Shown here: positions 6,349-64,000 of the stretch, in pieces | Numbering within the stretch: the stretch's first letter is position 1 | How the letters are laid out: every line of letters begins with the position of its first letter | Source of the DNA: Vicinamibacterales bacterium | Lineage (GTDB): Bacteria > Acidobacteriota > Vicinamibacteria > Vicinamibacterales > 2-12-FULL-66-21 | Direction of reading: 5' to 3' | Assembly: GCA_035758845.1 (NCBI GenBank) | Contig: DASTVZ010000012.1 | Span: 35,097-99,096 of the forward strand | Length of the DNA: 64,000 bases | Program-made: the position numbers and the translations under genes | Notes under the pieces: model-generated | The model's database searches: none | What the model was told of the DNA's origin: nothing | What the model saw: the letters and a program-made list of their open reading frames with translations, nothing else

Positions 6349-7395
<1,047 letters not shown>

Positions 7396-7409
7396 ACGTT
7401 TGAAAGGCA

Positions 7410-8254: not shown

Positions 8255-8269
8255 TGCTGCTCCTTGGGG

Positions 8270-15442: not shown

Positions 15443-16299
15443 GGGCGCGCAATCTCGAACTGCAGGAACACCGTATCAGCAAGGCCGATGCGCGACCCGG
15501 CTGGTAATGGACTTTCCCTGCCATTCTCGCGTTTGGTTCCGTCGGCAACCTCGAAGCCCTTCGGAACCGGCTGCCCGTTCACTGTTGTGCCGAGCGTACT
15601 CAGGTCAATGATGAAGAACGCTCCGGAGCGGGCGTCGCGCCGAATGCGGGCGTGTTCCCGCGATACATCTACAGACGAATCGATGCGCACGTCGGCTTTG
15701 TAGGCGATGCCGCCACGGCCAATCACGATCGAGTCGCGCGAGATCTCGAAGGTATGCGGACCGGAGTTGTCCTCGTATTGCAAGCGTGCATGGACGACGG
15801 TTGAAGCGGGTCCTGGCCGGCTCACCGTCTCTTCGCGCCTGGTCGTCCGCTGGCCGACGTGCACAGTCGTGATCCGTCGCGTCCGCTGACCGGCGCCCAA
15901 ATCGTCGCCGCTCGCCGGTAACATCAACTCCGAGTGGATCAGGATGTCTCCGGGGGCCAGCTCCTCGTCGGCGTCCGGGTGAAACTCGATCTGCCATTCG
16001 CGTCCGGCATTCTCGACCGGCATCGAACTGCCGGTCAGGCGATCGATATAGCGGCGATACGCAGGTGGATTGTTCAGCTTCCGCAGTTCCTCTTCGAGCG
16101 CGCGCGCCGTCTGTTCCTGCAGAATCGGAACGAGCGATTCCACGCGCGAGAACTCTTCCGGATGCAGATACACGACGAAACGGTTCGGCGCGAGCGTTGA
16201 GTACTTGAGCGGCTCGAGGTTATTCCGCATGTTCTCGAGAACGGCATCGATGAGGTCGCGCGCTGGTCGCTTCGGTGTCGTTGCGGACTGAGAGCTCAT
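15439..16299 (-). CDS. FHA-domain protein (FhaA-like)
   Basis: ORF 15439..16662 trimmed to ATG 16299 (MSSQSATTPKRPARDLIDAVLENM). C-terminal FHA motif IGRGG...VSREHARIRRD...GTTVNG. Confidence 0.8.
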   Translation of the reverse strand: MSSQSATTPKRPARDLIDAVLENMRNNLEPLKYSTLAPNRFVVYLHPEEFSRVESLVPILQEQTARALEEELRKLNNPPAYRRYIDRLTGSSMPVENAGREWQIEFHPDADEELAPGDILIHSELMLPASGDDLGAGQRTRRITTVHVGQRTTRREETVSRPGPASTVVHARLQYEDNSGPHTFEISRDSIVIGRGGIAYKADVRIDSSVDVSREHARIRRDARSGAFFIIDLSTLGTTVNGQPVPKGFEVADGTKRENGRESPLPAGSRIGLADTVFLQFEIARP

Positions 16300-16421
16300 A
16301 GACGCTGGGGGCGCTTGCGGCGCGATTCTACAGAACGAACGCGCCTGAAGACACGAAGATCGCACCCGACGTCTGACAATACGATCAGGAACTGTGCAAG
16401 TTCGAGAAATCTGGACGGAGG

Positions 16422-16775
16422 CTACTTCACGTCGGACAGAACGACCAGGATTTCCCCGGGACGAACCAGGCCGAGTTGCTGCCTGGCCACGAGCTCGAGC
16501 GTGGCGGCGTCGTGTTGCAGTCGATGGACTTCGCCGCGGAGCGCCTCGTTTTCGCGCTGCAAATCGGCGAGATGCTGCTTGACACGAAGGAGATCCTGGC
16601 GGGACCTGATGATCTGGAAGAGTCCGCGTTCCCCGAAGATGGCGTCGAGGAGCAGCACGCATCCAAGGAAGACAACCGCGAGGCGGACGTGCCGCGAACG
16701 GCGACGTCGCTTCTCAAGTGTGTTCGCCGCGGCGACATCGGCGACTGAACGCGCCTCACCGGTCATGCACTGCAC
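16422..16775 (-). CDS. ftsB: Septum formation initiator FtsB/DivIC family
   Basis: 117 aa: basic N-terminus, one TM (LAVVFLGCVLLL), a coiled coil (LADLQRENEALRGEV), then ARQQLGLVRPGE. Confidence 0.75.
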   Translation of the reverse strand: MQCMTGEARSVADVAAANTLEKRRRRSRHVRLAVVFLGCVLLLDAIFGERGLFQIIRSRQDLLRVKQHLADLQRENEALRGEVHRLQHDAATLELVARQQLGLVRPGEILVVLSDVK

Positions 16776-16848: not shown

Positions 16849-16921
16849 GCCGAGGTAGCTCAGTTGGTAGAGCACACGCCTGAAAAGCGTGGTGTCGGCA
16901 GTTCAATTCTGCCCCTCGGCA
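16849..16921 (+). tRNA. tRNA-Phe (anticodon GAA)
   Basis: Manual cloverleaf. Acceptor GCCGAGG/CCTCGGC, D-arm GCTC-AGTTGGTA-GAGC, anticodon arm CACGC-CTGAAAA-GCGTG, T-arm GGCAG-TTCAATT-CTGCC, discriminator A. CCA is not encoded. Confidence 0.9.
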
Positions 16922-46320: not shown

Positions 46321-47760
46321 TCAGTATTTCGTCTGGGACGGATCGACCTTATCGATCCACGCCAGAATCCCACCCTTGAGGTTGCTGACGCGGGTGAACC
46401 CGCGTTCCTGGAGCAACGACACGGCCTTCGCGCTTCGTCCACCCATCTTGCAATGCACGATCATCTCTCGGTTGCGATCGAGCTCACCCGTGCGCTGCGC
46501 CAGCTCACCGAGCGGGATGAGCTTCGAGCCTTCGATCCGGCAGATCTGGTATTCGTTTGGCTCGCGCACGTCCAGCAGGAAGAAATCCTCGCCGCGGTCC
46601 CTCTTCGCCTTCATCTCCTCGACAGTGACCTCCGGCACACCAGCCGATGCCGGCTGCGCGTGCGCTGGGACGACGCCGCAGAACTGGTCGTAGTCGATGA
46701 GCGCGTGGATGCTGGGATGATCGCCGCAGATCGGGCACTCGGGATCGCGCCGAAGTTTCAGCTCGCGGAACCGCATCTGCAGGGCGTCGTACAGCAAAAG
46801 ACGGCCGATGAGCGGCTGACCACTCCCGAGAATCAGCTTGATCGCTTCGGTCGCTTGAATCACGCCAATCACGCCGGGAAGCACGCCGAGCACGCCACCT
46901 TCAGCGCAGCTCGGAACCAGACCTGGAGGCGGCGGCTCGGGATACAGGCACCGGTAGCACGGGCCACCCTTGACCGCGAACACTGACGCCTGTCCGTCAA
47001 ACCGGAAGATGCTGCCGTAGGCGTTCGGCTTTCCGAGCAGCACGCACGCGTCGTTCACCAGATATCGCGTCTGAAAGTTATCCGTGCCGTCGAGGATGAC
47101 GTCGTAGTCCTTCAGCACGTCGAGCGCGTTCTTCGAGGTCAGCGCGAGTTCGTGCATCACGACCTTGACTGACGGATTCATCGCCGTCAATCGATCGCCC
47201 GCCGCTTCCAGCTTCCGCTTGCCGACGTCTGTCGTGTCGTAGATCACCTGGCGGTGCAGGTTGCTCGCGTCGACGGCGTCGAAATCGACGAGACCAAGCG
47301 TGCCAACTCCGGCGGCGGCGAGATACATCGAGGCTGGCGCGCCCAGCCCTCCCGCGCCGACGCACAGGACCCGGGCCGCCTTCAACTTGCGCTGCCCGTC
47401 AACACCGACCTCCGGCATGATCAAGTGCCGGCTGTAGCGCTGCACCTCTTCACGCGTGAGTTCGGGCGCGTCGACGGCGGCCCCCGACCCTCCGGCAACC
47501 GAAGGGACAATGCTGATCGTGTCGCCGGCGCTCAGCGGGGTCTGCTCGCGGTCGAGGTGACGAATGTCTTCGTCGTTCACATAAATGTTCACGAAGCTGC
47601 GGAGACGACCGTCCTCGTTGTAGAGGTGCCGTCGCAGGTCACCGTATTGGCCGACGAGACGTTGCAGCGCGTCACCGACGGTCCTGCCTTCAACTTCGAC
47701 GAACTCCTGCTTCCCGGCGAACGGACGAAGCGGCGTCGGAATCAGAATGCGATGGGGCAT
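46321..47760 (-). CDS. Fusion protein: MoaD/ThiS-like sulfur-carrier domain, then MoeB/ThiF-type E1 adenylyltransferase, then rhodanese
   Basis: ORF 46321..47928 trimmed to ATG 47760. Residues 1-93 form a beta-grasp domain ending IVPSVAGG. Then YSRHLIMPEVG...VGAGGLGAP, CxxC pairs, and a C-terminal rhodanese with the active loop HCKMGGRS. Confidence 0.8.
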   Translation of the reverse strand: MPHRILIPTPLRPFAGKQEFVEVEGRTVGDALQRLVGQYGDLRRHLYNEDGRLRSFVNIYVNDEDIRHLDREQTPLSAGDTISIVPSVAGGSGAAVDAPELTREEVQRYSRHLIMPEVGVDGQRKLKAARVLCVGAGGLGAPASMYLAAAGVGTLGLVDFDAVDASNLHRQVIYDTTDVGKRKLEAAGDRLTAMNPSVKVVMHELALTSKNALDVLKDYDVILDGTDNFQTRYLVNDACVLLGKPNAYGSIFRFDGQASVFAVKGGPCYRCLYPEPPPPGLVPSCAEGGVLGVLPGVIGVIQATEAIKLILGSGQPLIGRLLLYDALQMRFRELKLRRDPECPICGDHPSIHALIDYDQFCGVVPAHAQPASAGVPEVTVEEMKAKRDRGEDFFLLDVREPNEYQICRIEGSKLIPLGELAQRTGELDRNREMIVHCKMGGRSAKAVSLLQERGFTRVSNLKGGILAWIDKVDPSQTKY

Positions 47761-47783
47761 GTGAAAACTGTCCTTTTGTTGAA

Positions 47784-49043
47784 TTACACCTGCGGCAACG
47801 CCGCCGCCTGATCCCCCGATCGGAGGTACGCTTCGAAATCCTCGAGCGATCGCCCGATTTCGACCCTCGGCGCGACGCGCGGACCGGTCGTCTCCGCCGC
47901 GGTCTTGTAACCGTTCCCGGTAATGCACACCACGACCGACTCGTTCGATGGTATGACGCCCGCGCGGACCAGTTGGATCGCGCCTGCCAGTGTCGCACCG
48001 CCCGCCGGTTCGGTGAACACGCCTTCGGTCTCCGCCAAAAGCTCCATCGCCTGCAGAATTTCGTCGTCACTCGACGCCACACCAGTGCCGCCGGTTGATT
48101 TGACCGTCCGAACGACCTGGAAGCCGTCAGCAGGATTTCCGATCGCAATCGACTTCGCAATCGTGGCCGGTTTTACCGGTTCAGGAAATTCGAGATCCTG
48201 CTGGAGCGCGCGCACGACCGGTGCGCATCCCGCCGCCTGAGCCGCATGAATCTTCGGCAACTCGCCATCGACGAGGCCGATCTCACGCAACTCGCGGAAG
48301 CCGCGAAGGATGCGCGGAAGCAGTGTTCCTCCCGCAACCGGCGAGACCAGATGCTGCGGAAATCGCCAGCCTAGTTGTTCGGCGACCTCGAATCCTACGG
48401 TCTTGGCCCCTTCGGCGTAGTAACTCCGCAGGTTGATGTTTGCGAATCCCCATCCGAGCCTGTCCGCGATCTGCGTACAGAGCCGGTTCACATCGTCGTA
48501 GTTTCCGCGCACGCCGATGAGATGTGGCCGGAAGACGGCGGAACCGAGCACCTTGCCAAGTTCGAGGTCGTGGGGAATGAAAACGTAGCACTCGAGACCA
48601 AGTCGGGCGGCATGCGCCGAGACGCTGTTGCCGAGATTACCAGTGGAAGCGCAACCAAACACGGTGAATCCGAGTTCCACCGCGCGCGTCGCAGCCATCG
48701 ACACAACGCGATCCTTGTAGGACAGCGTCGGATGATTCACCGAATCATCTTTGATATACAGCTCCTGCAATCCAAGCCGCTTCGCCAGCCGATCCGCGCG
48801 AATGAGCGGCGTGTACCCCGAATGAAACCCGGTTCGCGGCTCGCCGGTGATCGGCAGCAGCTCCTTGAAGCGCCACACGTTCCTGGCGCGCCGCTCGATG
48901 AGATCGCGCGTCACGGCACCACGAACGGCATCGTAATCGTAGGCAACCTCCAGCGGGCCGAGACACTGATCGCAGACCCACAGTGCTTCGGCGGGGAACT
49001 TCGTCCCGCACAAGTGGCACTGCAGCCCTGTCATGAACGTCAT
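47784..49043 (-). CDS. Threonine-synthase-like PLP enzyme (second ThrC paralogue, candidate homocysteine-forming enzyme)
   Basis: 419 aa with an N-terminal Cys4 ribbon (CHLCG...CDQC) and PLP-lysine motif HPTLSYKDR. The start overlaps the thrB stop (ATGA). Confidence 0.75.
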   Translation of the reverse strand: MTFMTGLQCHLCGTKFPAEALWVCDQCLGPLEVAYDYDAVRGAVTRDLIERRARNVWRFKELLPITGEPRTGFHSGYTPLIRADRLAKRLGLQELYIKDDSVNHPTLSYKDRVVSMAATRAVELGFTVFGCASTGNLGNSVSAHAARLGLECYVFIPHDLELGKVLGSAVFRPHLIGVRGNYDDVNRLCTQIADRLGWGFANINLRSYYAEGAKTVGFEVAEQLGWRFPQHLVSPVAGGTLLPRILRGFRELREIGLVDGELPKIHAAQAAGCAPVVRALQQDLEFPEPVKPATIAKSIAIGNPADGFQVVRTVKSTGGTGVASSDDEILQAMELLAETEGVFTEPAGGATLAGAIQLVRAGVIPSNESVVVCITGNGYKTAAETTGPRVAPRVEIGRSLEDFEAYLRSGDQAAALPQV

Positions 49044-49984
49044 GCGTGACCTTTCCGATGCACTCGCACGGTTCGCACCGTGCAGGCTATCCGTTCCTTT
49101 CGATACGCCTCGCGAAGCATTCGTTCAGCTGCCGTGGTCCTGCCGGTTGTAAACGCCGCAATCGACGGCCCAGCCCCGCTCAGGCAGAACCCGATCACAT
49201 CAGGATGCCGCACACTGAGCACTCGACGCAAACCCGGCACAAGCCGCTCGCGATACGGCTGATGCACGCGATCCCCGAGCGCCTCCCGAAAACCCTCGAC
49301 GTTGCCGGTGCCGAGCGACCCCAACAGCAATGCGAGATGCTGCAGATTGAACACCGCATCGGGAAGCGGTAGTCGCCGCGGCAACACTCGGCGCGAAACT
49401 GACGTCCGCAACTCCGCATCGGGCGTCGCGACGACGATTCGCCATTTCGCGGGCCATGGCCATTGTGTCACGGCTATGGACCCGTCGTTCGCAACGCAAC
49501 AACTCGTAAATCCGCCGAAGAGCGCCGGCGCCGCGTTATCCGGGTGCCCTTCAATCTCGGTCGCCAAACGCAGGATGTCGTCGGCGGGCCGTCGTCCGTT
49601 GACCAGCTCGCCGAGTCGTAGACCGGCAATGGCGGCCGCCGCGCTGCTGCCAAGCCCGCTTCGAAGTGGAATTTCGCTCTTTACATCCACGACGAGCGAC
49701 GGAGTCCGAGCCCGCGTCCGCGACGACGGAAAGTTCCGAAACGCCTCTTCGATTCGATTCGGACCACCGAGGGGTCCATTCGCGAAGCGGCACTCGAGCC
49801 GGCCGCGCCCGTCAGCGATCACTGCCGCGACCCGCACTCGAAGATACAAACTGACGGCAACGCCAAGCGTGTCGAATCCGGGGCCAAGATTGGAGATCGA
49901 CGCGGGAACGACGATCTCCTGTCCTGTCGCGCCGTCGCTCCGGCGAGAACGGAGCGCAGGCGCACCCGGTCCTACGCGCTGCAT
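49040..49984 (-). CDS. thrB: Homoserine kinase
   Basis: 314 aa, GHMP kinase, with PASISNLGPGFD and IPLRSGLGSSAAAA. Confidence 0.85.
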   Translation of the reverse strand: MQRVGPGAPALRSRRSDGATGQEIVVPASISNLGPGFDTLGVAVSLYLRVRVAAVIADGRGRLECRFANGPLGGPNRIEEAFRNFPSSRTRARTPSLVVDVKSEIPLRSGLGSSAAAAIAGLRLGELVNGRRPADDILRLATEIEGHPDNAAPALFGGFTSCCVANDGSIAVTQWPWPAKWRIVVATPDAELRTSVSRRVLPRRLPLPDAVFNLQHLALLLGSLGTGNVEGFREALGDRVHQPYRERLVPGLRRVLSVRHPDVIGFCLSGAGPSIAAFTTGRTTAAERMLREAYRKERIACTVRTVRVHRKGHA

Positions 49985-51822
49985 TCGCCGTCCATGACCT
50001 CCGGGTTGAACGCATGATCCTCGCCGGGATCGATAAAGTCGGCCGGCAGGGCATCCTCAGGCGTCATCTGCTCGAGATCCGCAAGCGCCGCGCGGGCCCG
50101 TGCCGTATCGACGCGCTGGAAGAATGCGGGGGCCGTCTCACCGGTGTTGTGCTCATCCTGATAGAGACGCAGCAATCGCTCGACCGCTTCAGGGACGCGA
50201 CGGGCAGGTATCTTCGCCGTCAGCCGTCCAAAGCTCGCCGCCTGCTGACCAGCGCCGCCGCCGAGCATCACGAAGTACTGCGGCACGACACGATCGCCAA
50301 GTTTTCGGATGCTCCCCTGGAATCCAATCGTCGCAATGTGATGCTGCCCGCACCCGTTCGGACATCCGCTGATCTTGATCTTTGCCTCCGACGCTTCGCG
50401 CAACAGCTTCGCCGGCTGCCTCTCCAAGTTGTCGCCGATCAATCGCGCGAGGCCTCGCGATTGCGTGACCGCGAGACGGCATGATTCCGCCCCCGGGCAA
50501 CTCGTCACATCGGTGATTGTGCTCGCACCCGAGAGACCGAGGCCAGCCGCGGCAAGCCGGCGATACAGACCGGGCACCTGTCCGCTTCGCACCCAGCGCA
50601 TCACCACATTCTGATCGACGGTCACCCGCACCATGCCGTCGCTATACGCTCTCGAGAGCAGCGCCAGCGCGCGCATCTGCCCGGCGGTGATGTCGCCGAG
50701 CACGAGCGACACGATCACCTCGCAGTACTCTCCCTGCTTCTGCGGCCGCAGATTCGTCTGCAGCCATTCCGTCCGCTCACGTCCGGGGCTGCCGTCGGTC
50801 GGGTGAACCTCCGGGACGATGCCTGGCCCTTTCACGGGACCAGCAGTCACGAGCGCCGTGATGTCAGCAATCGCAGGTTGCGGCAGCCGCTCGCCGTCGG
50901 GCGGCCCCTCAACTGGCGGATGCTCAGGATCGAACGGCAACTCCGCGCCACCGTTCGCGCGCAAATCCTCGAGCTCATGATGGAACGCCGCGTGCCATGC
51001 GTCCCACCCCATCGACTTGACGAGGAACTTCAGCCGGTTGCGTTGCTTGTGCTCGTAGTCGCCATGTTTATGGAACACGCGCAGCACTGCTTCCGCGACC
51101 ATCAAAATGTCGCAGGCGGGCAGGAACTCGTACAGCGACGCGCCTGAGCGGCACATGATCGCGGTGCCGCCCGCGACCTGTACGCGGAACCCACGTCGAC
51201 CGGAACCGTCCGGCGCCATCATGGCGCGCCATCCGATGTCGTTAATCGAGGTGACGGCGTGGTCCTCGGACGCGCAGCCTTCGAATCCAATCTTGAATTT
51301 CCGCGGCAGCACGGAGCTGAGTGGATGACGCAGTAAATACCGCGACATAGCTTCGGCGTAGGGTGTGACGTCGAACACTTCGTCGCGGGCAACGCCGGCG
51401 TGTGGACAGGCCGTGATGTTTCGCACCGAGTTCCCGCACGCCTCGCGCGTCGTCAGGCCAGCCTCGGCGAGATGGCGCATCGCCGGCTCGGCATCGTGCA
51501 GGCGCACAAAGTGCAGCTGCATGTTCTGCCGTGTGGATATGTGACCGAATCCGCGCGAGTAGCGCTCCGCCACATCAGCGAGCGCTTCCAGCTGCGAGGC
51601 GTCGAGCACGCCTTGCGGGATCTTGACGCGCAACATCTGCGCGTCCATGTCCTGCCGCTGCCCGTACGTGCCGCGGAGCAACCGGAACTTCCGCCACTCC
51701 TCGGGAGAGATCTCGCCGCGCTCGAACTTGTCGAGCATCTGTACGAACGAATCGATGTCCGCCGTGTCAGCGAAAGTCAGCCGACTGCGGCCGTACGTGC
51801 GGGGGTCGTCTAAAACAGCCAT
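49972..51822 (-). CDS. Sulfite reductase hemoprotein (ferredoxin-type NirA/Sir family)
   Basis: 616 aa with siroheme/4Fe-4S cysteine motifs TSCPGAESCRLA and SGCPNGCGQHH. Context is sulfur metabolism and siroheme synthesis. Confidence 0.8.
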   Translation of the reverse strand: MAVLDDPRTYGRSRLTFADTADIDSFVQMLDKFERGEISPEEWRKFRLLRGTYGQRQDMDAQMLRVKIPQGVLDASQLEALADVAERYSRGFGHISTRQNMQLHFVRLHDAEPAMRHLAEAGLTTREACGNSVRNITACPHAGVARDEVFDVTPYAEAMSRYLLRHPLSSVLPRKFKIGFEGCASEDHAVTSINDIGWRAMMAPDGSGRRGFRVQVAGGTAIMCRSGASLYEFLPACDILMVAEAVLRVFHKHGDYEHKQRNRLKFLVKSMGWDAWHAAFHHELEDLRANGGAELPFDPEHPPVEGPPDGERLPQPAIADITALVTAGPVKGPGIVPEVHPTDGSPGRERTEWLQTNLRPQKQGEYCEVIVSLVLGDITAGQMRALALLSRAYSDGMVRVTVDQNVVMRWVRSGQVPGLYRRLAAAGLGLSGASTITDVTSCPGAESCRLAVTQSRGLARLIGDNLERQPAKLLREASEAKIKISGCPNGCGQHHIATIGFQGSIRKLGDRVVPQYFVMLGGGAGQQAASFGRLTAKIPARRVPEAVERLLRLYQDEHNTGETAPAFFQRVDTARARAALADLEQMTPEDALPADFIDPGEDHAFNPEVMDGECSA

Positions 51823-51827
51823 TGCTC

Positions 51828-52598
51828 TTATCCCAGCAACGCAGACGTACGAGCGGAGGTCTGCTCGCGCTCCTGCGCCGCGATGATTACGGCGAGCGCG
51901 GTCACAGCGCCCACCACGATGATGCCCGGCAGATTCTCCTGATCTTCGATTGCCGCCGAATGGATCGCGTCGAGCGTGCCGTGCCAGGACTGCTCACCCT
52001 CGTGAGAGATCCCAATCAGCACCGCAGCCGGGGTATTCGGCGCCCATCCGGCAGCGAGCAACTCGTTGGCAATTGCCGCACGGTTTGCCATTCCCATCAA
52101 TACGACGACCGTCGCGCTCGCCGGCGCGAGCGAACGCAGAACCGGCGCATACGCCGATTCTGCATGTCCCGAGACGACAACAAAGCCCGACGCGAGGCCG
52201 CGATGTGTCACTGGGATTCCGGCGAGCAGCGGGGCCGCTATGGCGCTGGAGATCCCGGGAACGATCTCGCATTCAATCCCGGCGGCAGCCAGCGCGAGTG
52301 CTTCTTCCCCGCCGCGCCCGAACACAAACGGATCGCCGCATTTCAAGCGGACGACCTGATGACCGCGGCGCGCTTCGCGGATCATCAGCCGGTTGATCGC
52401 ATCCTGCGTGATCGCGGGACGGCCGGCCCGCTTACCGACGAAAAACCGCCGCGCGCGCGGTGCGAACTGCAGCGTGTCGGAATCGATTAACGCATCATAG
52501 AGCACCAGATCCGCCTTTTCGAGGCGCCTGATCGCCCTGAGCGTCAGAAGTTCGGGATCTCCCGGACCGGCGCCGACGAGTGATACGCGTCCTGTCAT
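51828..52598 (-). CDS. cobA: Uroporphyrinogen-III C-methyltransferase
   Basis: ORF 51828..52763 trimmed to the ATG at 52598, which overlaps the upstream stop (ATGA). Contains VSLVGAGPGDPELLT and VRLKCGDPFVFGRGGEE. Confidence 0.9.
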   Translation of the reverse strand: MTGRVSLVGAGPGDPELLTLRAIRRLEKADLVLYDALIDSDTLQFAPRARRFFVGKRAGRPAITQDAINRLMIREARRGHQVVRLKCGDPFVFGRGGEEALALAAAGIECEIVPGISSAIAAPLLAGIPVTHRGLASGFVVVSGHAESAYAPVLRSLAPASATVVVLMGMANRAAIANELLAAGWAPNTPAAVLIGISHEGEQSWHGTLDAIHSAAIEDQENLPGIIVVGAVTALAVIIAAQEREQTSARTSALLG

Positions 52599-53206
52599 TG
52601 CACGAACTCCGGATCGCGACCTGTCGTTCGATCGCGATCGTGCGATGACGCGCGTGACTCGTACAGCGCATTCAGTGCGTCGAGAAGTTGCGGACGCCGC
52701 GCGGCCATCGGAACACCTCGAGCCCGCCATGACTCGCGAATCTCGCGTGCACGTGCGTTCCACTGACTCAGCGTCAGATCATCGGGGAGCATGTAATCGA
52801 TCGCTTCGCGAAGAAGACCCGCGAGTGCCGGTGCTGCGCCGTCGGTGGAGATGGCCAGCGTTACACCGGGACGTCTGACGACGCCCCCGAGATAGACCGT
52901 CGCGTTGGAGGGATCGTCGACCGCATTGACGAACACCTGACGCCGTTCCGCTTCGTGCGCAACAGATCGGTTGACGTCGGACGGAGCCGCCGCGACGACG
53001 AACCATGCCCCATCAAGGTCAGTCGGCTCGAACGCCCTCTGAATGATGTCGACGCCGGCGGCTCGGATCGCATTGCACACGTCGGGCGCGACGACCACGA
53101 CGTGGGCGCCTGCTGCCTGGAGGGCGGCGAGCTTCGATGCGGCAACCGGCCCACCGCCGACCACCACCACGCGACGACCCTGGAGCTTCAGGAACGCGGG
53201 AAACAA
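52595..53206 (-). CDS. Precorrin-2 dehydrogenase / sirohydrochlorin ferrochelatase (SirC/CysG N-terminal type)
   Basis: 203 aa, TTG start. Typical N-terminus FPAFLKLQGRRVVVVGGGPVAASK. Confidence 0.8.
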   Translation of the reverse strand: MFPAFLKLQGRRVVVVGGGPVAASKLAALQAAGAHVVVVAPDVCNAIRAAGVDIIQRAFEPTDLDGAWFVVAAAPSDVNRSVAHEAERRQVFVNAVDDPSNATVYLGGVVRRPGVTLAISTDGAAPALAGLLREAIDYMLPDDLTLSQWNARAREIRESWRARGVPMAARRPQLLDALNALYESRASSHDRDRTTGRDPEFVQ

Positions 53207-53233: not shown

Positions 53234-53319
53234 CTTGGTCCGTGTTAATCCGTGGCTTGGTCCGTGTTCTTCCGTGTTAATCCGTGGCTTGGTCCGTGTT
53301 CTTCCGGGTTAATCCGTGG
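53234..53319 (-). repeat. Tandem 32-nt repeat built from periodic CACGGA motifs, in the 5' UTR of the sulfite-reduction operon
   Basis: Plus-strand units CTTGGTCCGTGTTCTTCCG(T/G)GTTAATCCGTGG, two full copies plus one 22-nt copy. On the minus strand this reads CCACGGATTAA-CACGGAAGAA-CACGGACCAAG repeated. Confidence 0.8.
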
Positions 53320-53322
53320 CTT

Positions 53323-53360
53323 AAATAAAAAAGCCCGGAAGGCTTTGGCCTCCCGGGCTT
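53323..53360 (-). terminator. Intrinsic terminator (attenuator) of the Cys leader
   Basis: Minus strand: GCCCGGGAGGC-caaa-GCCTTCCGGGC (11 bp including one G.U), followed by TTTTTTATTT. Confidence 0.8.
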
Positions 53361-53398
53361 CGGTTACATCTCGTTGCGCTGGATGTTGTTTCAGGACA

Positions 53399-53482
53399 TC
53401 AACGCGTGGACCGAAGGCAGGGAAGCCCTACGAGCTGCATACAGCAGCAACAAATACACGCGCAGGTATTCCCTGAAAACAT
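53399..53482 (-). CDS. Cys-rich leader peptide (27 aa)
   Basis: Not in the ORF track. ATG TTT TCA GGG AAT ACC TGC GCG TGT ATT TGT TGC TGC TGT ATG ... TGA translates to MFSGNTCACICCCCMQLVGLPCLRSTR. Lies between a promoter and a terminator, upstream of sulfur-assimilation genes. Confidence 0.7.
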   Translation of the reverse strand: MFSGNTCACICCCCMQLVGLPCLRSTR

Positions 53483-53490
53483 TCGGTCAG

Positions 53491-53519
53491 TTATAACGTT
53501 CACTCGTCCGTAAAGTCAA
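53491..53519 (-). promoter_or_regulatory. Sigma-70-type promoter of the Cys leader
   Basis: Minus strand: TTGACT, 17 nt, TTATAA. The leader ATG starts 8 nt after the -10 box, so the transcript may be leaderless. Confidence 0.6.
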
Positions 53520-53623: not shown

Positions 53624-54949
53624 TCACGCCGGAATCGCGAGATCGAGGCGGCGGCGGATCTGATCGTAATCGTTGGGCAGCTCAATAGGGCGATTGGCCT
53701 GAGTAGTGGCGATTCCGGGGAGCTTCCCGGCGTGATAATCGGCCTTGAAATCGGTGAATTTCAGGCCGCTTGCCGTCGAAATGACGACGACCCGCTCGTC
53801 CCGCTTGATTTCGCCACGCTTGGCCAGTTTGATGAGCGCGGCGAGGGCGACCCCCGTGTGCGGACATGCGAACATCCCGGTCCGGTCCGCTCGTGCGACC
53901 GCGTCGGCAAGCTCCTGTTCGCTCGCCTGCTCCACCAATCCGTTGCAGCGTTGAAGGGCGCCAATAGCTTTCTGGATTGAAACAGGATTCCCGATCTGTA
54001 TGGCTGAGGCCATTGTCGGTTTCGCCACCACCGGCTCGAATCGCCAGCCGTTTCGTGACGCGAGATACAACGGGTTCGCCGCTTCCGCCTGAGCAGCGAT
54101 CAGGCGTGGCACGCGCGCGACCAGACCCAGATCGCGCATCATTTCGAATCCAGCGGCGAACGCGCCGATGTTTCCGAGGTTACCGCTCGGAACAACCACG
54201 ACGTCCGGTACTTGCCAATCGAACTGTTGCGCAATCTCGATCGAGGCGGTCTTCTGTCCTTCGAGCCGCAGGCTGTTCATCGAGTTTGCCAGGTAAAGGC
54301 CTTCCTCTTCAGCCAGCTTCTTGATGATCGCCATGCAACCGTCGAAGTCCGTGTCGATCGACAGAACAGTCGCACCGTTGGCGAGCGGTTGAACAAGTTG
54401 CGCGACGGTGACCTTGCCTCGAGGAAGTACGACGATCGCTGGAATTCCTGCCGCCGCCGCGTACGCGGCGAGTGAGGCCGATGTGTCACCAGTGGATGCA
54501 CAGCCGACGGCGCGGATCTGATGCCCGTTCGCGATCATCTGCCGCACCATCGAGACGAGCACCGTCATCCCGAGGTCCTTGAAGGAACCGGTATGCGAGT
54601 TGCCGCACAACTTCACCCAGACTTCTTCGATTCCGATGCCGCGTCCGAAAGCCTCGGCGAGGAAGAGATTCGTGCCCCCCTCATCCATCGAGACGACGTT
54701 GTTGTCGTCGATTTGCGGGCAGACCCATTCCTTCTTGCCCCAGACGCTGGACCCGTACGGCCATGTGGTTCGCTTGTAACGCTCGTCGAACAACCGCATC
54801 CACGCCGCGGCGCTCCGATCGCGTAGGGCTTCCAGATCGTGTGCGACCTCGAGCAGGCCTCCGCACGTCGGGCAGCGATAGATGATGGTGTCGAGCGCGT
54901 ACGACCCCGGGCATCCGGCAATACAACGAAATGCAGCTCGGTAGCTCAT
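53624..54949 (-). CDS. thrC: Threonine synthase
   Basis: 441 aa with PLP-lysine motif [11 protein letters not shown] and an N-terminal CxxC...CPTCG ribbon. Directly downstream of hom. Confidence 0.9.
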
Positions 54950-55021: not shown

Positions 55022-56332
55022 TTAAACGGTCGCGACCGGAGCGGCCACGGAGGCCGGCAGCGCTTCTCGCGACAACACCGGCAGCGCGACCGGCGCTTCT
55101 CCATGAAACTCGAACGCTGAAAGATCCTTCATCGCGCGCTCGATCGACGAAACGGGCGACGGCTCGAGGCTGACGACAAACGGCCGGCGGCCGACTGGAA
55201 AGCCTGGCTCCTGCAGGATGGCGTCGATGTTGATCGAATGACGAGCGAACGCCGACGCCAGCGACGCGATGATGCCAGGCCGGTCGGCAACCGTGAAACG
55301 TACATAGTACGCGCTTGTGAACTCCGGCGACACGTCCGCGTGGAGCACCCCGGAGCGGAGCCCGTATGGCACCTCGTCCCTGGCGATTGCCAGCAAGTCC
55401 GAGACAACGGCGACGGCGGTCGGTTCTCCGCCTGCGCCTGGGCCACCAAACGTCGTTTCTCCGCCAAACCGGCCCTGCAGGGTCACGATGTTTTCACTTC
55501 CACGAACGCGCGCGAGCGGCGACTCGAGCGGCACCAGCGCCGGTCCCACCGCGGCGCGAACCAGGCTTGAATCGCTCGTCCGCTCCGCCCACGCAACCTG
55601 CCGAATGGTACACCCCATCTGACGCGCGTAGACGAAATCCACGGCGTCAATCGCGTCGATCCCGCGGGTCTGAATCGCGTCCGGCGTCACGTCGACGGCG
55701 AGAGCAATCTGCGACAGGATCGCGAGCTTGGCCTGGGCATCGATGCCGTCGATATCCTGCGACGGATCTGCCTCGGCCAGTCCCAGCGTTTGCGCGTCAG
55801 CCAATGCCTCGCGGAACGGCAGGTGCTCGCGTTCCATTCGACTGAGGATGTAATTGCAGGTGCCGTTCAGGATTCCTGTCACGCGCGTCAGGCTGTCGCC
55901 CGCGAGTCCATGCTCGATCGCGCGAACCACCGGCACACCACCGGCAACCGCTGCTTCAAATCTCAGATGCCGTTCCAGTCGCGATGCCTCGGCGAGGAGC
56001 TCGGGGCCGCGATGCGCGATCACTTGTTTGTTTGCGGTGACCACCGACTTGCCCGCTTGGAGCGCCTTGCGAATCCAACACTCGGCCGGTGAACGTCCGC
56101 CGATCAACTCCACGAAGACATCGACATCATCGGCAAGCGCGTCGTCGATCGACTCGGTCCAGCGAACCCTGGGATCGATCCAGGGGACGCGTTTCCGTTC
56201 GATCCCGCGATTGACGATCACGGTCAGGCGCAGCTCGGGAGGGGCGAGTTCCTGAAGCAGCCTGGCAACGGAGCGTCCGACGGTTCCGAAGCCGGCAATT
56301 GCGACACGTGTGGGTCTGTTAGCGCGCGTCAT
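55022..56332 (-). CDS. hom: Homoserine dehydrogenase (with C-terminal ACT domain)
   Basis: 436 aa with VAIAGFGTVGRSV, VVTANK and GILNGTCNYIL. Confidence 0.9.
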   Translation of the reverse strand: MTRANRPTRVAIAGFGTVGRSVARLLQELAPPELRLTVIVNRGIERKRVPWIDPRVRWTESIDDALADDVDVFVELIGGRSPAECWIRKALQAGKSVVTANKQVIAHRGPELLAEASRLERHLRFEAAVAGGVPVVRAIEHGLAGDSLTRVTGILNGTCNYILSRMEREHLPFREALADAQTLGLAEADPSQDIDGIDAQAKLAILSQIALAVDVTPDAIQTRGIDAIDAVDFVYARQMGCTIRQVAWAERTSDSSLVRAAVGPALVPLESPLARVRGSENIVTLQGRFGGETTFGGPGAGGEPTAVAVVSDLLAIARDEVPYGLRSGVLHADVSPEFTSAYYVRFTVADRPGIIASLASAFARHSINIDAILQEPGFPVGRRPFVVSLEPSPVSSIERAMKDLSAFEFHGEAPVALPVLSREALPASVAAPVATV

Positions 56333-56435: not shown

Positions 56436-56473
56436 AAAAAAAAACCCGCCGGCGTTTTCAAGCCGGCGGGTTT
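56436..56473 (-). terminator. Intrinsic terminator (attenuator) of the Thr/Ile leader
   Basis: Minus strand: CCCGCCGGC-ttgaaaac-GCCGGCGGG, followed by T9. About 100 nt upstream of hom. Confidence 0.8.
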
Positions 56474-56498
56474 GGTCGAGCGCGATTTCTTTGTGAAC

Positions 56499-56594
56499 TC
56501 AGATTGCGTTCGCCAACCGACCACCGGCATGAGACGTTCGCGGCGTGCGAATTCGCATGCACATCGGGCACGTGATGGTGATCGTCGCAAACAT
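56499..56594 (-). CDS. Thr/Ile-rich leader peptide (31 aa)
   Basis: Not in the ORF track. ATG TTT GCG ACG ATC ACC ATC ACG TGC CCG ... TGA translates to MFATITITCPMCMRIRTPRTSHAGGRLANAI. Confidence 0.7.
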   Translation of the reverse strand: MFATITITCPMCMRIRTPRTSHAGGRLANAI

Positions 56595-56636
56595 GCAGTC
56601 TCGAGGGCACGATCTTCAGACCGTGCCGAAACAGCG

Positions 56637-56666
56637 AGTATAGAAGTCGGGCAATGCGAACGTCAA
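56637..56666 (-). promoter_or_regulatory. Sigma-70-type promoter of the thr leader
   Basis: Minus strand: TTGACG (56666-56661), 18 nt, TATACT (56642-56637). Confidence 0.6.
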
Positions 56667-62368: not shown

Positions 62369-62431
62369 TACCGAGAGTTAGAACGCGAAACCTGAAACTG
62401 CCACAATTCCTGATTTCCCGGAGGCTTCCCA

Positions 62432-63451
<1,020 letters not shown>

Positions 63452-63460
63452 TCTGCAGCA

Positions 63461-64000
63461 ATGGATCTGAGACAGCTGGAGATTCTGCGTGCGATTGCCG
63501 AGAGCGGCTCGTTCACGGCGGCCGGCGCCCGCCTGAACGTCTCGCAATCGGCAATCAGCCGTCAGATCCTGCTGCTCGAGGAAGAATTCAAGGAGCCGCT
63601 CTTTATCCGCTTCGGCCGGCGGATCCAGATCACGCCGACGGGCGAAGTCCTCCTGCAGTTGAGCCATCGCGTCTTCGCCGACATCCGCGACACCTCCGAG
63701 AGCATCCTCGACACGAAGAAGAAGCTGTCGGGGACGTTGCGGCTGGTCGGCGGGATGACGGTGTGTCTCTACGTCTTTCCTCCCCTGCTGAAAGAGTTCC
63801 GCCGTCGCCACCCCGACGTTGATATCAAGGTGATCACGGGTGGCACGCCACGGCTGCTGCGCAAGCTTCGTTCTGGTGCCGCCGATCTCGGTTTGCTGAC
63901 GTTGCCGACCGACGACTCGGCGCTGGCGACGGTTCCAGTCATTCACGAGGAGCTGCTTCTCGTTGCGCCTCCGGCGAACCGTCTCGCCAACGGCCGCGCG
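63461..64000 (+). CDS. LysR-family transcriptional regulator (N-terminal 180 codons; runs off the right edge)
   Basis: Not in the ORF track because it has no stop. MDLRQLEILRAIAESGSFTAAGARLNVSQSAISRQILLLEEEF is a typical LysR HTH. Confidence 0.8.
   Translation, partial: MDLRQLEILRAIAESGSFTAAGARLNVSQSAISRQILLLEEEFKEPLFIRFGRRIQITPTGEVLLQLSHRVFADIRDTSESILDTKKKLSGTLRLVGGMTVCLYVFPPLLKEFRRRHPDVDIKVITGGTPRLLRKLRSGAADLGLLTLPTDDSALATVPVIHEELLLVAPPANRLANGRA

What the first reader, a model, noticed from the sequence alone, without database searches (positions are those of the whole stretch)
46321..53206. Six-gene operon links siroheme, sulfite reductase, homoserine kinase, a ThrC-like enzyme and a sulfur-carrier/E1/rhodanese protein
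Gene order on the minus strand is sirC, cobA, sir, thrB, thrC-like, then moaD-moeB-rhodanese. The junctions are tight: ATGA, 5 nt, 13-nt overlap, ATGA and 23 nt. The set would supply reduced sulfur (siroheme plus sulfite reductase) and an activated carbon skeleton (O-phosphohomoserine from ThrB). It would also supply a fold-type-II PLP enzyme and the machinery to make a protein thiocarboxylate. Protein-thiocarboxylate sulfur donors are established for CysO/CysM, for HcyS/MetY, and, as I recall, for a ThrC-like MetM with carrier MetO acting on O-phosphohomoserine in Streptomyces. Here the whole route, from sulfite to a probable homocysteine-forming step, appears packed into one transcription unit under a Cys-codon leader. 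I have not seen that arrangement described.
Basis: inference. Interest (0 to 1): 0.8.

Follow-up and report, generated by a model that had tools for sequence, protein, structure and literature searches.

The report
Sulfite-to-homocysteine operon with fused sulfur carrier
A soil Acidobacterium (order Vicinamibacterales) packs sulfite reduction, homoserine activation and a recently discovered protein-thiocarboxylate route to homocysteine into one cysteine-controlled operon, so it is an elaborated variant of a known pathway and not a new kind of system.

Summary
Six minus-strand genes have exactly the reported junctions: sirC, cobA, sir, thrB, a ThrC-like gene, and a MoaD/ThiS–E1–rhodanese fusion. 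They sit behind a conserved Cys-codon leader with an intrinsic terminator.

The 419-aa ThrC-like protein is not a canonical threonine synthase. A plant-type ThrC lies just upstream, next to hom. The 419-aa protein falls (40/40 bootstraps) in a separate, multi-phylum clade. In that clade the gene is usually followed by a ~91-aa carrier ending in GG, and in five lineages it is preceded by a SAM riboswitch. These are the hallmarks of MetM/MetO (Hasebe 2024). The clade also has a remodelled phosphate-site signature.

The carrier here is MetO/CysO-like but fused to its E1. Its Gly-Gly is therefore internal (VAGG|S) and must be released by proteolysis. A relative carries a JAMM protease at exactly this position; the window has none.

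The operon and its leader recur in more than 15 independent metagenome contigs.

It is a new variant of a known kind, distinguished by the carrier–E1 fusion, the co-operonic sir/siroheme/thrB genes, and a Cys attenuator where relatives have a SAM riboswitch. Met and Cys genes elsewhere in the genome could not be checked.

The parts
53490..53519 (-). Promoter-like site of the sulfur operon: -35 TTGACT (53519-53514), 18-nt spacer, -10 TATAAC (53495-53490)
   Evidence: Read from the sequence. Both hexamers are conserved in 13 distinct homologous leaders. The consensus scan does not list it, because the last base of the -10 is C. It is therefore inferred.
53399..53482 (-). Leader ORF MFSGNTCACICCCCMQLVGLPCLRSTR*: 7 Cys in 27 codons, 6 of them within codons 7-14
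   Evidence: The peptide is conserved with synonymous and conservative changes in 11 variants, MF[SA]G[NK]TCAC[IN]CCCCMQ...
53322..53361 (-). Intrinsic terminator of the attenuator: 14-bp stem with 9 GC pairs, 4-nt loop, T-run
   Evidence: z = -4.2. The stem is kept in all variants, with changes near the loop and G.U to G-C or A-U switches. In a co-transcriptional fold, a ribosome stalled at Cys codons 7-14 lets the upstream segment pair 12 of 14 nt of the left arm. A ribosome at the stop codon leaves that arm free.
53239..53322 (.). 32-bp tandem repeat, 2.6 copies, between the terminator and the sirC ribosome-binding site; variable among relatives
   Evidence: Relatives have different repeat units or none. 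Function unknown.
52595..53206 (-). sirC-like gene: precorrin-2 dehydrogenase/ferrochelatase (CysG N-terminal type), 203 aa, TTG start
   Evidence: PF13241; TIGR01470, 133 bits. Homologous contigs have a gene call of the same length.
51828..52598 (-). cobA: uroporphyrinogen-III C-methyltransferase, 256 aa; its start overlaps the sirC stop (ATGA)
   Evidence: TIGR01469, 271 bits; NF004790, 279 bits. Junction.
49972..51822 (-). Siroheme/[4Fe-4S] sulfite reductase of the ferredoxin-dependent NirA/SirA type, 616 aa
   Evidence: PF01077 and PF03460, two copies each. It aligns to tobacco NiR and M. tuberculosis NirA. It has PRKFK where NiR has PRKWN. The second Lys is recalled as the sulfite-reductase hallmark. 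sirC-cobA-sir are also linked to metM-like genes in other orders in L005, L006 and L009.
49040..49984 (-). thrB: homoserine kinase, 314 aa; supplies O-phosphohomoserine
   Evidence: TIGR00191, 216 bits against a cut-off of 168. It overlaps sir by 13 nt and the next gene by ATGA.
47784..49043 (-). MetM-like ThrC paralogue, 419 aa, with an N-terminal Zn ribbon; predicted O-phosphohomoserine-dependent homocysteine synthase
46321..47760 (-). Fusion protein, 479 aa: MetO/CysO-like carrier, then MoeZ-type E1, then rhodanese
   Evidence: PF02597, PF00899 and PF00581. NF005902 MoeZ 532 bits and NF005646 560 bits, both below their whole-protein cut-offs (647 and 633); NF006444 MoeB 475 bits against a cut-off of 449. 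Conserved in more than 120 clusters.
47488..47760 (-). Carrier domain, aa 1-91, ending ..IVPSVAGG (Gly90-Gly91 at 47493-47488), followed by the invariant Ser92
   Evidence: It aligns over its full length with standalone carriers that end PA[IV]AGG downstream of metM-like genes (E 1e-14 to 1e-26). It also aligns with M. tuberculosis CysO, 3dwg_C (E 1e-14). G90, G91 and S92 are invariant.
46732..47436 (-). E1 adenylation domain (ThiF/MoeB) with GAGGLG, two CxxC pairs and the loop Cys (PSCAEGG)
   Evidence: PF00899, 277 bits. Matches MoeB 1jw9 and Uba4 6yub. Motifs read from the translation.
46351..46626 (-). Rhodanese domain with the active-site loop HCKMGGRS
   Evidence: PF00581, 69 bits. The Cys is invariant (C437).
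53624..54949 (-). Context: canonical plant-type threonine synthase, 441 aa, in a separate hom-thrC unit
   Evidence: Arabidopsis TS 1e5x, 566 bits, E 4.5e-169. Only 28% identical to the 419-aa protein.
55022..56332 (-). Context: homoserine dehydrogenase (hom) with an ACT domain
   Evidence: NF004976, 394 bits.

Best explanation
**What it is.** This is a self-contained sulfur-assimilation and homocysteine operon of a Vicinamibacterales (Acidobacteriota) bacterium.

**Proposed route.**
1. SirC and CobA make siroheme for the sulfite reductase Sir, which reduces sulfite to sulfide. The family assignments are shown; the chemistry is inferred from the families.
2. ThrB phosphorylates homoserine, which comes from the adjacent hom gene, to O-phosphohomoserine.
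3. The last gene is translated as a polyprotein. A MetO/CysO-type carrier is released by cleavage after Gly91 (VAGG|S). The protease is probably a JAMM/Mec-type enzyme encoded elsewhere. This step is inferred; the precedents are a relative's operon and the cleavage of M. tuberculosis MoaX between Gly82 and Ser83.
4. The MoeZ-type E1 adenylates the carrier's C-terminus. Sulfur from sulfide, or from a persulfide on the rhodanese Cys, converts it to a thiocarboxylate (inferred from CysO/MoeZ and HcyS/HcyF).
5. The MetM-like PLP enzyme replaces the phosphate of O-phosphohomoserine with this sulfur to give homocysteine. A carrier-homocysteine adduct needing the same protease is a possible intermediate. 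Family membership is shown; the activity is inferred.

O-phosphohomoserine is thus the Thr/Met branch point, as in plants, with a plant-type ThrC competing for it.

**Regulation.** Expression is set by a classical leader-peptide attenuator. Ribosomes stalled at the Cys codons allow an antiterminator to form. Fast translation lets the terminator form. The operon is therefore induced by cysteine limitation.
For: - **Gene identities and tight junctions:**
- **A canonical ThrC is present separately:**
- **The 419-aa protein lies in the MetM-like clade:** 40/40 bootstraps. It has all 13 clade-specific residues.
- **Carrier adjacency:** about 65 of 80 genome loci from more than 10 phyla have a ~91-aa GG-ending carrier directly downstream. 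Several also have E1 and JAB genes.
- **SAM riboswitch (RF00162):** it precedes the gene or its operon in five lineages.
- **Literature:** MetM/MetO/Mec/MoeZ steps are described in the GapMind 2026 preprint 10.1101/2024.10.14.618325. The Microcystis homologue is 51.6% identical to S. albulus MetM, and its neighbouring carrier 47% identical to MetO (PMC12172450).
- **Carrier domain is MetO/CysO-like:**
- **Fusion is conserved, with invariant GG-S:**
- **Relative L002:** it has the same operon with a JAMM gene (HSHPDAPAEPSQHD) inserted between the metM-like gene and the fusion. All four loci with a JAB gene have C-terminally extended carriers.
- **Precedent for cleavage:** MoaX must be cleaved at Gly82|Ser83 to be active (PMC4326299).
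- **Sir looks like a sulfite reductase:** it has PRKFK, not the PRKWN of NiR. sirC-cobA-sir are linked to metM-like genes in other gene orders.
- **Leader, terminator and antiterminator:**. They are conserved in 13 variants.
- **Operon recurs in independent contigs:**
Against: - No JAMM/Mec protease occurs anywhere in the 64-kb window, by motif, tblastn or HMM search. None occurs in L085-L102 either. Release of the carrier is therefore unproven.
- Close relatives (L005, L006, L009, L003, at 71-74% identity) have the metM-like gene with hom, thrB or sir but no carrier or E1 nearby. Free sulfide may therefore suffice.
- The regulator senses Cys, not SAM or Met.
- thrB, which is also needed for threonine, sits behind the Cys attenuator. 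This is physiologically awkward and unexplained.
- The Microcystis homologue did not behave clearly as a MetM in vivo and showed threonine synthase and deaminase activities in vitro (PMC12172450).
- The Sir protein's nearest solved relatives are nitrite reductases.
Confidence: 0.62

Rival explanations
1. The MetM-like enzyme uses free sulfide from Sir directly, acting as an O-phosphohomoserine sulfhydrylase. The carrier-E1-rhodanese fusion would then serve another thiocarboxylate-dependent process, such as Moco synthesis, tRNA thiolation or CysM-type cysteine synthesis. It would be co-regulated only because it also consumes reduced sulfur.
For: The nearest relatives outside this lineage keep metM-like, thrB and sirC-cobA-sir together without any carrier or E1 in about 9 kb on either side (L005, L006, L009). 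MoeZ of mycobacteria is known to serve both Moco and cysteine synthesis (PMC3227635). The Microcystis study mimicked MetM activity with Na2S.
Against: Across phyla the carrier gene is the most constant neighbour of metM-like genes. The fused domain is orthologous to those carriers. In L002 the order is metM-like, JAB, fusion, with overlapping reading frames. GapMind describes MetM as dependent on the MetO thiocarboxylate.
Confidence: 0.15
2. The N-terminal MoaD-like domain is never released. It acts in cis as a docking or regulatory domain of the E1, and a separate free carrier encoded elsewhere is the real sulfur donor.
For: Iyer et al. 2006 (PMC1779556) describe ThiF proteins with a fused N-terminal Ub-like domain. 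These co-occur with standalone ThiS, which implies a different role for the fused domain. No protease is present in the window.
Against: The Campylobacter-type fused domains are described as distinct from ThiS. Here the domain aligns end to end with standalone MetO/CysO carriers and keeps the terminal AGG motif, which is invariant together with the following Ser. No standalone carrier is found in the operon or the window (method applied). L002 places a JAMM protease immediately upstream.
Confidence: 0.12
3. The PLP enzyme makes cysteine from O-phosphoserine plus thiocarboxylate, like M. tuberculosis CysM/CysO. thrB would then be in the operon only for threonine synthesis.
For: The operon is controlled by Cys codons, not by SAM. 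The carrier domain matches CysO.
Against: The enzyme is a ThrC homologue and not a CysK/CysM type (TIGR01136, 28 bits against a cut-off of 344). Its clade is SAM-riboswitch controlled in five lineages. thrB is translationally coupled on both sides. thrB or hom adjoin metM-like genes in several gene orders.
Confidence: 0.06
4. The 419-aa protein is simply a second threonine synthase isozyme, and the cluster is a fortuitous juxtaposition of thr and sulfur-assimilation genes.
For: It passes TIGR00260 (254 bits) and is annotated as threonine synthase everywhere. In L003, L013 and L017 the orthologue sits next to ask/hom with no sulfur genes. The Microcystis homologue shows weak threonine synthase activity.
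Against: A plant-type ThrC is already present next to hom. The clade is separate with 40/40 bootstraps, and its residues are altered at ThrC positions T88, S155, N157 and R160. It has carrier and SAM-riboswitch contexts. It scores below the NF006050 cut-off (298 against 303).
Confidence: 0.05

Closest known systems
MetM/MetO thiocarboxylate pathway of Streptomyces albulus (Hasebe et al. 2024, AEM 90:e01247-24; summarised in GapMind 2026, 10.1101/2024.10.14.618325)
   Same: A ThrC-homologous PLP enzyme acts on O-phosphohomoserine. A small GG-ended carrier is encoded with it, and a MoeZ-type E1 with rhodanese activates it. The family is often misannotated as threonine synthase. Relatives of the window protein carry the same SAM riboswitch control.
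   Different: Here the carrier is fused to the N-terminus of its E1. thrB, sulfite reductase and the siroheme genes are in the same operon. Control is by a Cys-codon attenuator, not a SAM riboswitch. No Mec/JAMM gene is nearby. Identity to actinobacterial family members is only about 47%, and the S. albulus sequence itself was not compared.
HcyS/HcyD/HcyF/Sir/MetY cluster of Wolinella succinogenes (Krishnamoorthy & Begley 2011) and the 'row 4e' sulfur-assimilation neighbourhoods of Iyer, Burroughs & Aravind 2006 (PMC1779556)
   Same: A sulfite reductase is clustered with a ThiS/MoaD-type carrier, an E1 and a homocysteine-forming PLP enzyme. The carrier precursor needs C-terminal trimming.
   Different: The PLP enzyme there is MetY (fold type I, using O-acetylhomoserine), not a ThrC-type enzyme using O-phosphohomoserine. 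Those E1s lack rhodanese and co-occur with SirA. A JAB gene is present there. There is no thrB gene and no carrier-E1 fusion.
CysO/CysM/Mec/MoeZ cysteine pathway of Mycobacterium tuberculosis
   Same: The carrier domain matches CysO (3dwg_C, E 1e-14). The E1 with rhodanese is MoeZ-like. A phosphorylated amino-acid acceptor is used (O-phosphoserine there).
   Different: CysM is a CysK-type enzyme and the product is cysteine. All components are separate genes.
MoaX, the fused MoaD-MoaE molybdopterin synthase of M. tuberculosis (PMC4326299)
   Same: A sulfur-carrier domain is fused upstream of a partner enzyme, with an internal Gly-Gly followed by Ser. Cleavage between Gly82 and Ser83 is required for activity.
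   Different: The partner there is MoaE, not the E1, and the pathway is Moco synthesis. The protease is unidentified there as well.
Cysteine-codon leader ORFs: polycysteine uORFs of mycobacteria (10.1101/834739) and predicted Cys leaders in Actinobacteria (PMC1262725)
   Same: A short upstream ORF with a run of Cys codons controls sulfur and cysteine genes.
   Different: The actinobacterial cases lack an intrinsic terminator. Here a full classical attenuator is present: leader, antiterminator and a 14-bp terminator with a T-run.

Membership tests
MetM (thiocarboxylate-dependent O-phosphohomoserine to homocysteine synthase) | Fold-type II PLP enzyme homologous to ThrC, with the Schiff-base Lys | tested here: met
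   PF00291, 216 bits; TIGR00260, 254 bits. The Lys in ..LSYKDR.. is invariant (K110). It aligns to K61 of T. thermophilus ThrC.
MetM (thiocarboxylate-dependent O-phosphohomoserine to homocysteine synthase) | Phylogenetically separate from canonical ThrC and grouped with characterised MetM | tested here: inconclusive
   Separation from ThrC is met: 40/40 bootstraps and 13 signature residues. The link to characterised MetM is indirect. It rests on the Microcystis clade member (L080), reported as 51.6% identical to S. albulus MetM, and on SAM-riboswitch-controlled actinobacterial members.
MetM (thiocarboxylate-dependent O-phosphohomoserine to homocysteine synthase) | Encoded together with a MetO sulfur-carrier gene | tested here: met
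   A carrier domain starts 23 nt downstream. The same adjacency is seen in about 65 of 80 loci.
MetM (thiocarboxylate-dependent O-phosphohomoserine to homocysteine synthase) | SAM riboswitch upstream, as reported for S. albulus | tested here: not met
   Rfam finds no riboswitch in the window; a Cys leader is present at that position. The feature is met in relatives L004, L019, L021, L028 and L073. It is a regulatory feature, not a catalytic one.
MetM (thiocarboxylate-dependent O-phosphohomoserine to homocysteine synthase) | Converts O-phosphohomoserine plus MetO thiocarboxylate to homocysteine | not testable with these tools
   This needs an enzyme assay.
MetO/CysO-type sulfur carrier | ThiS/MoaD beta-grasp domain of about 90 aa | tested here: met
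   PF02597, 58 bits; TIGR01687, 52 bits against a cut-off of 49.5; NF041918, 60.6 against 60. CysO 3dwg_C, E 1e-14.
MetO/CysO-type sulfur carrier | Free C-terminal Gly-Gly available for adenylation | tested here: not met
   The GG (aa 90-91) is internal and followed by 388 more residues. A free end requires proteolysis, which is not shown. The domain is therefore a carrier precursor at best.
MoeZ-type E1 (adenylyltransferase/sulfurtransferase) | ThiF/MoeB adenylation domain plus a C-terminal rhodanese with a catalytic Cys | tested here: met
   PF00899, 277 bits, and PF00581, 69 bits. NF006444 MoeB scores 475 bits, above its cut-off of 449. The MoeZ-named model NF005902 scores 532 bits, below its whole-protein cut-off of 647, so the MoeZ label rests on the domain architecture. 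The HCKMGGRS Cys is invariant.
Wolinella-type HcyS/HcyD/HcyF/Sir/MetY cluster | MetY (O-acetylhomoserine sulfhydrylase) as the acceptor enzyme, and a JAMM protease in the cluster | tested here: not met
   No MetY-type or JAB gene occurs in the operon or window. The system works like that cluster but is not a member.
Canonical threonine synthase | Conserved residues at T. thermophilus positions T88 (STGNT), S155, N157 and R160 (NSxNxxR). I recall T88, S155 and R160 as phosphate ligands needed for product-assisted catalysis. | tested here: not met
   The window has L137, N204, R206 and Y209 at these positions. All eight canonical ThrCs in the alignment keep T/S/N/R. The functional role of the residues is recalled from memory, not verified here.
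Classical leader-peptide transcription attenuator | Short ORF with a run of regulatory codons, an intrinsic terminator, and a mutually exclusive antiterminator dependent on ribosome position | tested here: met
   in silico only. Conserved in 13 variants.
Assimilatory sulfite reductase (as opposed to nitrite reductase) | Siroheme/[4Fe-4S] NIR_SIR architecture with the Lys-x-Lys anion-binding motif | tested here: inconclusive
   The architecture is met. The window has PRKFK where tobacco NiR has PRKWN. The diagnostic value of this motif is recalled from memory. The nearest PDB hits are NiRs and M. tuberculosis NirA.

The most novel reading that the evidence does not exclude
The operon may be a complete, autonomous sulfite-to-homocysteine module with three unusual properties.
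1. The sulfur carrier is made as a ubiquitin-style precursor fused to its own E1, and must be cut after Gly-Gly by a trans-encoded JAMM protease before it can be charged. That would be a bacterial metabolic counterpart of ubiquitin-precursor processing.
2. O-phosphohomoserine is the Thr/Met branch point, as in plants, and is partitioned against a plant-type threonine synthase.
3. Homocysteine, not cysteine, is the first organic sulfur compound. Cysteine would be made by reverse transsulfuration, which would explain why the whole module is governed by a Cys-codon attenuator.
Probability: 0.3. Interest if true: 0.65.

Novelty: new variant of a known kind. Interest (0 to 1): 0.5.

Why it matters
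- It would extend the MetM/MetO route, known experimentally only from Streptomyces since 2024, to Acidobacteria, one of the most abundant soil phyla.
- It would show the route wired directly to sulfite reduction and homoserine activation.
- The survey done here shows that the MetM-like/MetO pair occurs in at least ten phyla. These include Aquificaceae and Acidimicrobiales, relatives of organisms for which Price et al. 2018 found no known homocysteine pathway. Most of these proteins are annotated as 'threonine synthase'.
- The conserved carrier-E1 fusion offers a clean system for asking how internal Gly-Gly carriers are released.
- The Cys attenuator is a rare example of a complete classical attenuator that senses cysteine.

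Tried and rejected
1. **Papers not held.** Hasebe 2024 (PMC11497804), Krishnamoorthy & Begley 2011 (PMC3089676), Tran 2011 (PMC3176619) and Murakawa 2011 (PMC3024773) could not be read. Statements about them rest on citing papers or on memory, and are marked as such.
2. **S. albulus MetM sequence.** It could not be obtained. Cluster look-ups of representatives gave only unnamed or Micromonosporaceae entries.
3. **AlphaFold model of the fusion.** It was unusable (mean pLDDT 45.6, pTM 0.33, from a shallow alignment). No structural search was run.
4. **Search for a JAMM/Mec protease in the window.** A loose HxHx(6-14)Sx2D motif gave only hits in non-coding frames. tblastn with the L002 JAB and an HMM built from four JABs found nothing.
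5. **An apparent unfused variant.** L095 seemed to have separate carrier and E1 ORFs. This turned out to be an in-frame TAA inside the carrier domain, either a sequencing error or a pseudogene, and not a stop after GG.
6. **Full-length thermodynamic folding of the leader.** It always keeps the terminator. Only the co-transcriptional model, without the right arm, shows the antiterminator.
7. **Cysteate synthase and CysK/CysM membership.** Both were rejected for the 419-aa protein: TIGR03844 scores 86 against a cut-off of 325, and TIGR01136 scores 28 against 344.
8. **Other Met or Cys genes in the window.** None was found (synteny annotation).

Full report
**1. The observation**

The six minus-strand reading frames exist as described. 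Profile searches identify them as follows:
- a CysG-N-terminal-type precorrin-2 dehydrogenase/ferrochelatase (sirC, 52595-53206)
- uroporphyrinogen-III methyltransferase (cobA; real start at the ATG at 52598)
- a two-module NIR_SIR siroheme/[4Fe-4S] reductase (49972-51822)
- homoserine kinase (TIGR00191, 216 bits against a cut-off of 168; 49040-49984)
- a 419-aa ThrC homologue (47784-49043)
- a protein with ThiS, ThiF and rhodanese domains (real start at the ATG at 47760; 479 aa)

Reading the junctions base by base gives ATGA, 5 nt, a 13-nt overlap, ATGA and 23 nt with an AAAAGGA ribosome-binding site.

Upstream lies a 27-codon ORF, MFSGNTCACICCCCMQLVGLPCLRSTR* (53482-53399). A 14-bp GC-rich hairpin with a T-run follows at 53361-53330. 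Rfam finds no known riboswitch in the region.

Closest homologues are from Vicinamibacterales MAGs of the phylum Acidobacteriota.

**2. Is it more than chance?**

The same order recurs in metagenome contigs L085-L088: hom, thrC, a gap of about 300 nt, sirC, cobA, sir, thrB, the ThrC-like gene and the fusion, with a convergent citryl-CoA lyase gene after it. A pattern search for the leader found 14 further contigs, L089-L102. Wherever sequence is available, the leader is followed by the terminator and by sirC and the downstream genes.

The three-domain fusion occurs in more than 120 protein clusters at 87-99% identity. It is therefore not an assembly artefact.

**3. What is the ThrC-like protein?**

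The window encodes two ThrC homologues that are only 28% identical.
- The 441-aa protein next to hom matches Arabidopsis threonine synthase at 566 bits (E 4.5e-169). It is the canonical enzyme.
- The 419-aa protein matches bacterial ThrC structures at only 169-197 bits. It falls just under the NF006050 cut-off (298 against 303).

An exhaustive search of representative proteins shows a large family of ~420-aa relatives at 35-60% identity.

I scanned one genome per species with a family alignment. This gave 80 loci from Acidobacteriota, Planctomycetota, Verrucomicrobiota, Cyanobacteria, Nitrospinota, Nitrospirota, Chloroflexota, Binatota, Actinomycetota, Aquificota and others.

In a neighbour-joining tree the family separates from eight canonical ThrCs in 40 of 40 bootstraps. 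Some of those ThrCs come from the same loci as family members. The window protein nests inside the family, in a Vicinamibacteria clade that also has 40/40 support.

Thirteen positions are at least 90% conserved within the family and differ from the residue conserved in ThrCs. The window protein has the family residue at all thirteen.

Four of these positions align to T88, S155, N157 and R160 of T. thermophilus ThrC, and the numbering was verified by alignment. The window protein has L137, N204, R206 and Y209 there. I recall T88, S155 and R160 as ligands of the phosphate that steers ThrC toward threonine. That role could not be verified here.

**4. Functional context of the family**

Carrier genes:
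- In about 65 of the 80 loci, the gene is followed directly by a ~91-aa ThiS/MoaD-type ORF ending PA[IV]AGG.
- Several loci add an E1 gene. Four add a JAB/JAMM protease.

Regulation:
- A SAM riboswitch (RF00162, 69-89 bits) precedes the gene or its operon in Micromonospora, Binataceae, Verrucomicrobiota, Planctomycetota and Acidimicrobiales.

These are the features by which MetM/MetO was found and defined in Streptomyces albulus (Hasebe et al. 2024). The evidence for that comes from two sources:
- PMC12172450 reports the Microcystis protein as 51.6% identical to MetM, next to a carrier 47% identical to MetO. The Microcystis locus L080 belongs to the same clade as the window protein.

The family also occurs in Aquificaceae and Acidimicrobiales. 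Relatives of these organisms were singled out by Price et al. 2018 as lacking every known homocysteine pathway.

I conclude that the 419-aa protein belongs to the MetM-type family. Two caveats apply. The S. albulus sequence itself was not compared. The Microcystis enzyme also showed threonine synthase and deaminase activities in vitro.

**5. The carrier-E1 fusion**

Residues 1-91 of the last protein align end to end with the standalone carriers of other phyla (E 1e-14 to 1e-26). They also align with M. tuberculosis CysO (3dwg_C, E 1e-14). The rest of the protein is a MoeZ/Uba4-type E1. It has the GAGGLG motif, two CxxC pairs, the loop cysteine, and a rhodanese domain with the active-site loop HCKMGGRS.

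The carrier's Gly-Gly is internal (…IVPSVAGG|SGAAV…). G90, G91 and S92 are invariant across 24 homologues. A thiocarboxylate needs a free C-terminus, so the domain must be cut out.

Three observations make this plausible:
- A relative with an 81%-identical MetM-like protein (L002) has the same operon with a 141-aa JAMM protease inserted between the metM-like gene and the fusion. Its motif is HSHPDAPAEPSQHD.
- All four loci with a JAB gene have C-terminally extended carriers. Most carriers that end exactly at GG have no JAB gene nearby.
- M. tuberculosis MoaX, a MoaD-MoaE fusion, is active only after cleavage between Gly82 and Ser83, which is the same GG|S junction (PMC4326299).

Against this, no JAMM gene exists in the 64-kb window or in L085-L102. 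Iyer et al. 2006 also describe N-terminal Ub-like domains on ThiF proteins that are probably not carriers. An AlphaFold model of the fusion was too poor to use.

**6. Sulfite reductase, thrB and the upstream genes**

The reductase aligns best with plant nitrite reductases and with M. tuberculosis NirA. It has PRKFK where tobacco NiR has PRKWN, and I recall the second lysine as the sulfite-reductase hallmark.

sirC-cobA-sir are linked to metM-like genes in other gene orders in L005, L006 and L009. thrB or hom adjoin metM-like genes in L003, L005-L008, L010, L013 and L017. The association of the MetM-like enzyme with homoserine activation and sulfite reduction is thus a recurrent theme in Acidobacteria. 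It is not a one-off.

Those relatives lack a nearby carrier and E1. This is the main support for the rival model in which free sulfide is the donor.

No other Met or Cys gene lies in the window (synteny annotation). The proposed genome-wide test for metX/metY/cysK could not be run.

**7. Regulation**

The leader region has three conserved elements:
- The promoter-like hexamers: TTGACT, an 18-nt spacer, and TATAAC.
- The leader peptide, MF[SA]G[NK]TCAC[IN]CCCCMQ.., which is conserved with synonymous changes across 13 distinct variants.
- The terminator hairpin, which is kept through changes that preserve pairing.

Folding the whole leader always yields the terminator. I then modelled the RNA as it exists before the right arm of the terminator is transcribed. 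With a ribosome stalled at any of Cys codons 7-14, the segment GGGCUUCCCUGCCUUCGG… pairs with 12 of the 14 nt of the left arm (-34.8 kcal/mol). With a ribosome at the stop codon, that arm stays free. This is the logic of a classical attenuator that induces the operon when Cys-tRNA charging is low.

Cys-codon leaders have been described in Actinobacteria, but without intrinsic terminators (PMC1262725; 10.1101/834739).

Sensing Cys and not SAM fits an operon that carries the cell's sulfite reductase. It would fit best if cysteine is made from homocysteine. That is untested.

One point is unexplained. thrB, which is also needed for threonine synthesis, lies behind the Cys attenuator.

**8. Comparison with what is known, and verdict**

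Functionally the system combines two known designs:
- the MetM/MetO/MoeZ route, which uses O-phosphohomoserine as acceptor;
- the Wolinella HcyS/HcyD/HcyF/Sir/MetY arrangement, in which a sulfite reductase is clustered with a carrier, an E1 and a homocysteine-forming enzyme. This is summarised as row 4e of Iyer et al. 2006 and described in PMC8191291.

It is not a member of the Wolinella type. It has no MetY and no JAB gene, and its E1 carries a rhodanese domain.

The new features are:
- the conserved carrier-E1 polyprotein;
- thrB and the siroheme genes in the same operon;
- the complete Cys attenuator.

The weakest steps are carrier release and carrier-versus-sulfide use. I rate it a new variant of a known kind, of moderate interest.

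Noticed in passing
window 56442-56666 (minus strand), upstream of hom: The hom-thrC unit has its own attenuator-like leader. It has a promoter-like site (TTGACG-18-TATACT, 56666-56637), the ORF MFATITITCPMCMRIRTPRTSHAGGRLANAI* (ATG near 56593), and a 12-bp terminator with a T9 run (56473-56442). Homologous Thr/Ile/Met-rich leaders and the same terminator occur in L085, L088, L090 and L099.
   Followed up: partly
L002 1380-1780, upstream of the aspartate kinase gene: This relative lacks the internal Cys leader and has AK-hom-thrC-sirC-...-fusion as one contiguous run. The short ORF upstream of AK reads MGCCCCTCIATNTSMRNRIMRICVSGGVCCVSAP*. This looks like a composite Cys plus Thr/Ile/Met leader. 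My simple search found no T-run terminator there.
   Followed up: partly
window 53624-54949 (minus strand): The canonical ThrC is of the plant type (566 bits to Arabidopsis TS 1e5x, aligned over chain residues 45-471). Plant TS is SAM-activated, as I recall, and competes for O-phosphohomoserine at the Thr/Met branch point. The same branch point is implied here. Whether the bacterial enzyme keeps the SAM site was not examined.
   Followed up: no
window 53239-53322: A 32-bp tandem repeat (2.6 copies, 98% matches) lies between the attenuator terminator and the sirC ribosome-binding site. Relatives have different repeat units (L085, L095, L100) or none (L088, L090, L094, L102). Function unknown.
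   Followed up: partly
L029 3206-3853 and L041 10279-10800: In two loci the MetO-like carrier domain is followed after GG by a long extension (…PPKLIK.P.I…VTNIR…). It resembles the NIL domain of the DUF39/NIL-ferredoxin homocysteine system. Both loci also encode an E1 and a JAB protease. This resemblance was not tested with profiles.
   Followed up: no
L095 8177-8179: One metagenome copy of the fusion gene has an in-frame TAA inside the carrier domain (HLDR*QTQ). It is probably a sequencing error or a pseudogene. It is not a natural unfused variant.
   Followed up: yes
window 7424-16662 (minus strand): This is a cluster of two FHA-domain proteins, a PP2C phosphatase with a beta-helix region, a Ser/Thr protein kinase, and a 1117-aa FtsW/RodA-transpeptidase fusion. 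It resembles the actinobacterial fhaA-fhaB-pstP-rodA-pbpA-pknB cell-division cluster, but with RodA and the PBP fused.
   Followed up: no
window 6328-7659 and 62378-63946 (minus strand): Two long ORFs (443 and 522 aa) have no Pfam match at E 1e-5. The second may be a non-coding frame, because it overlaps a plus-strand ORF with higher GC3.
   Followed up: no
window 16849-16921 (+): A single tRNA-Phe (GAA) is the only Rfam or ARAGORN hit in the window.
   Followed up: yes
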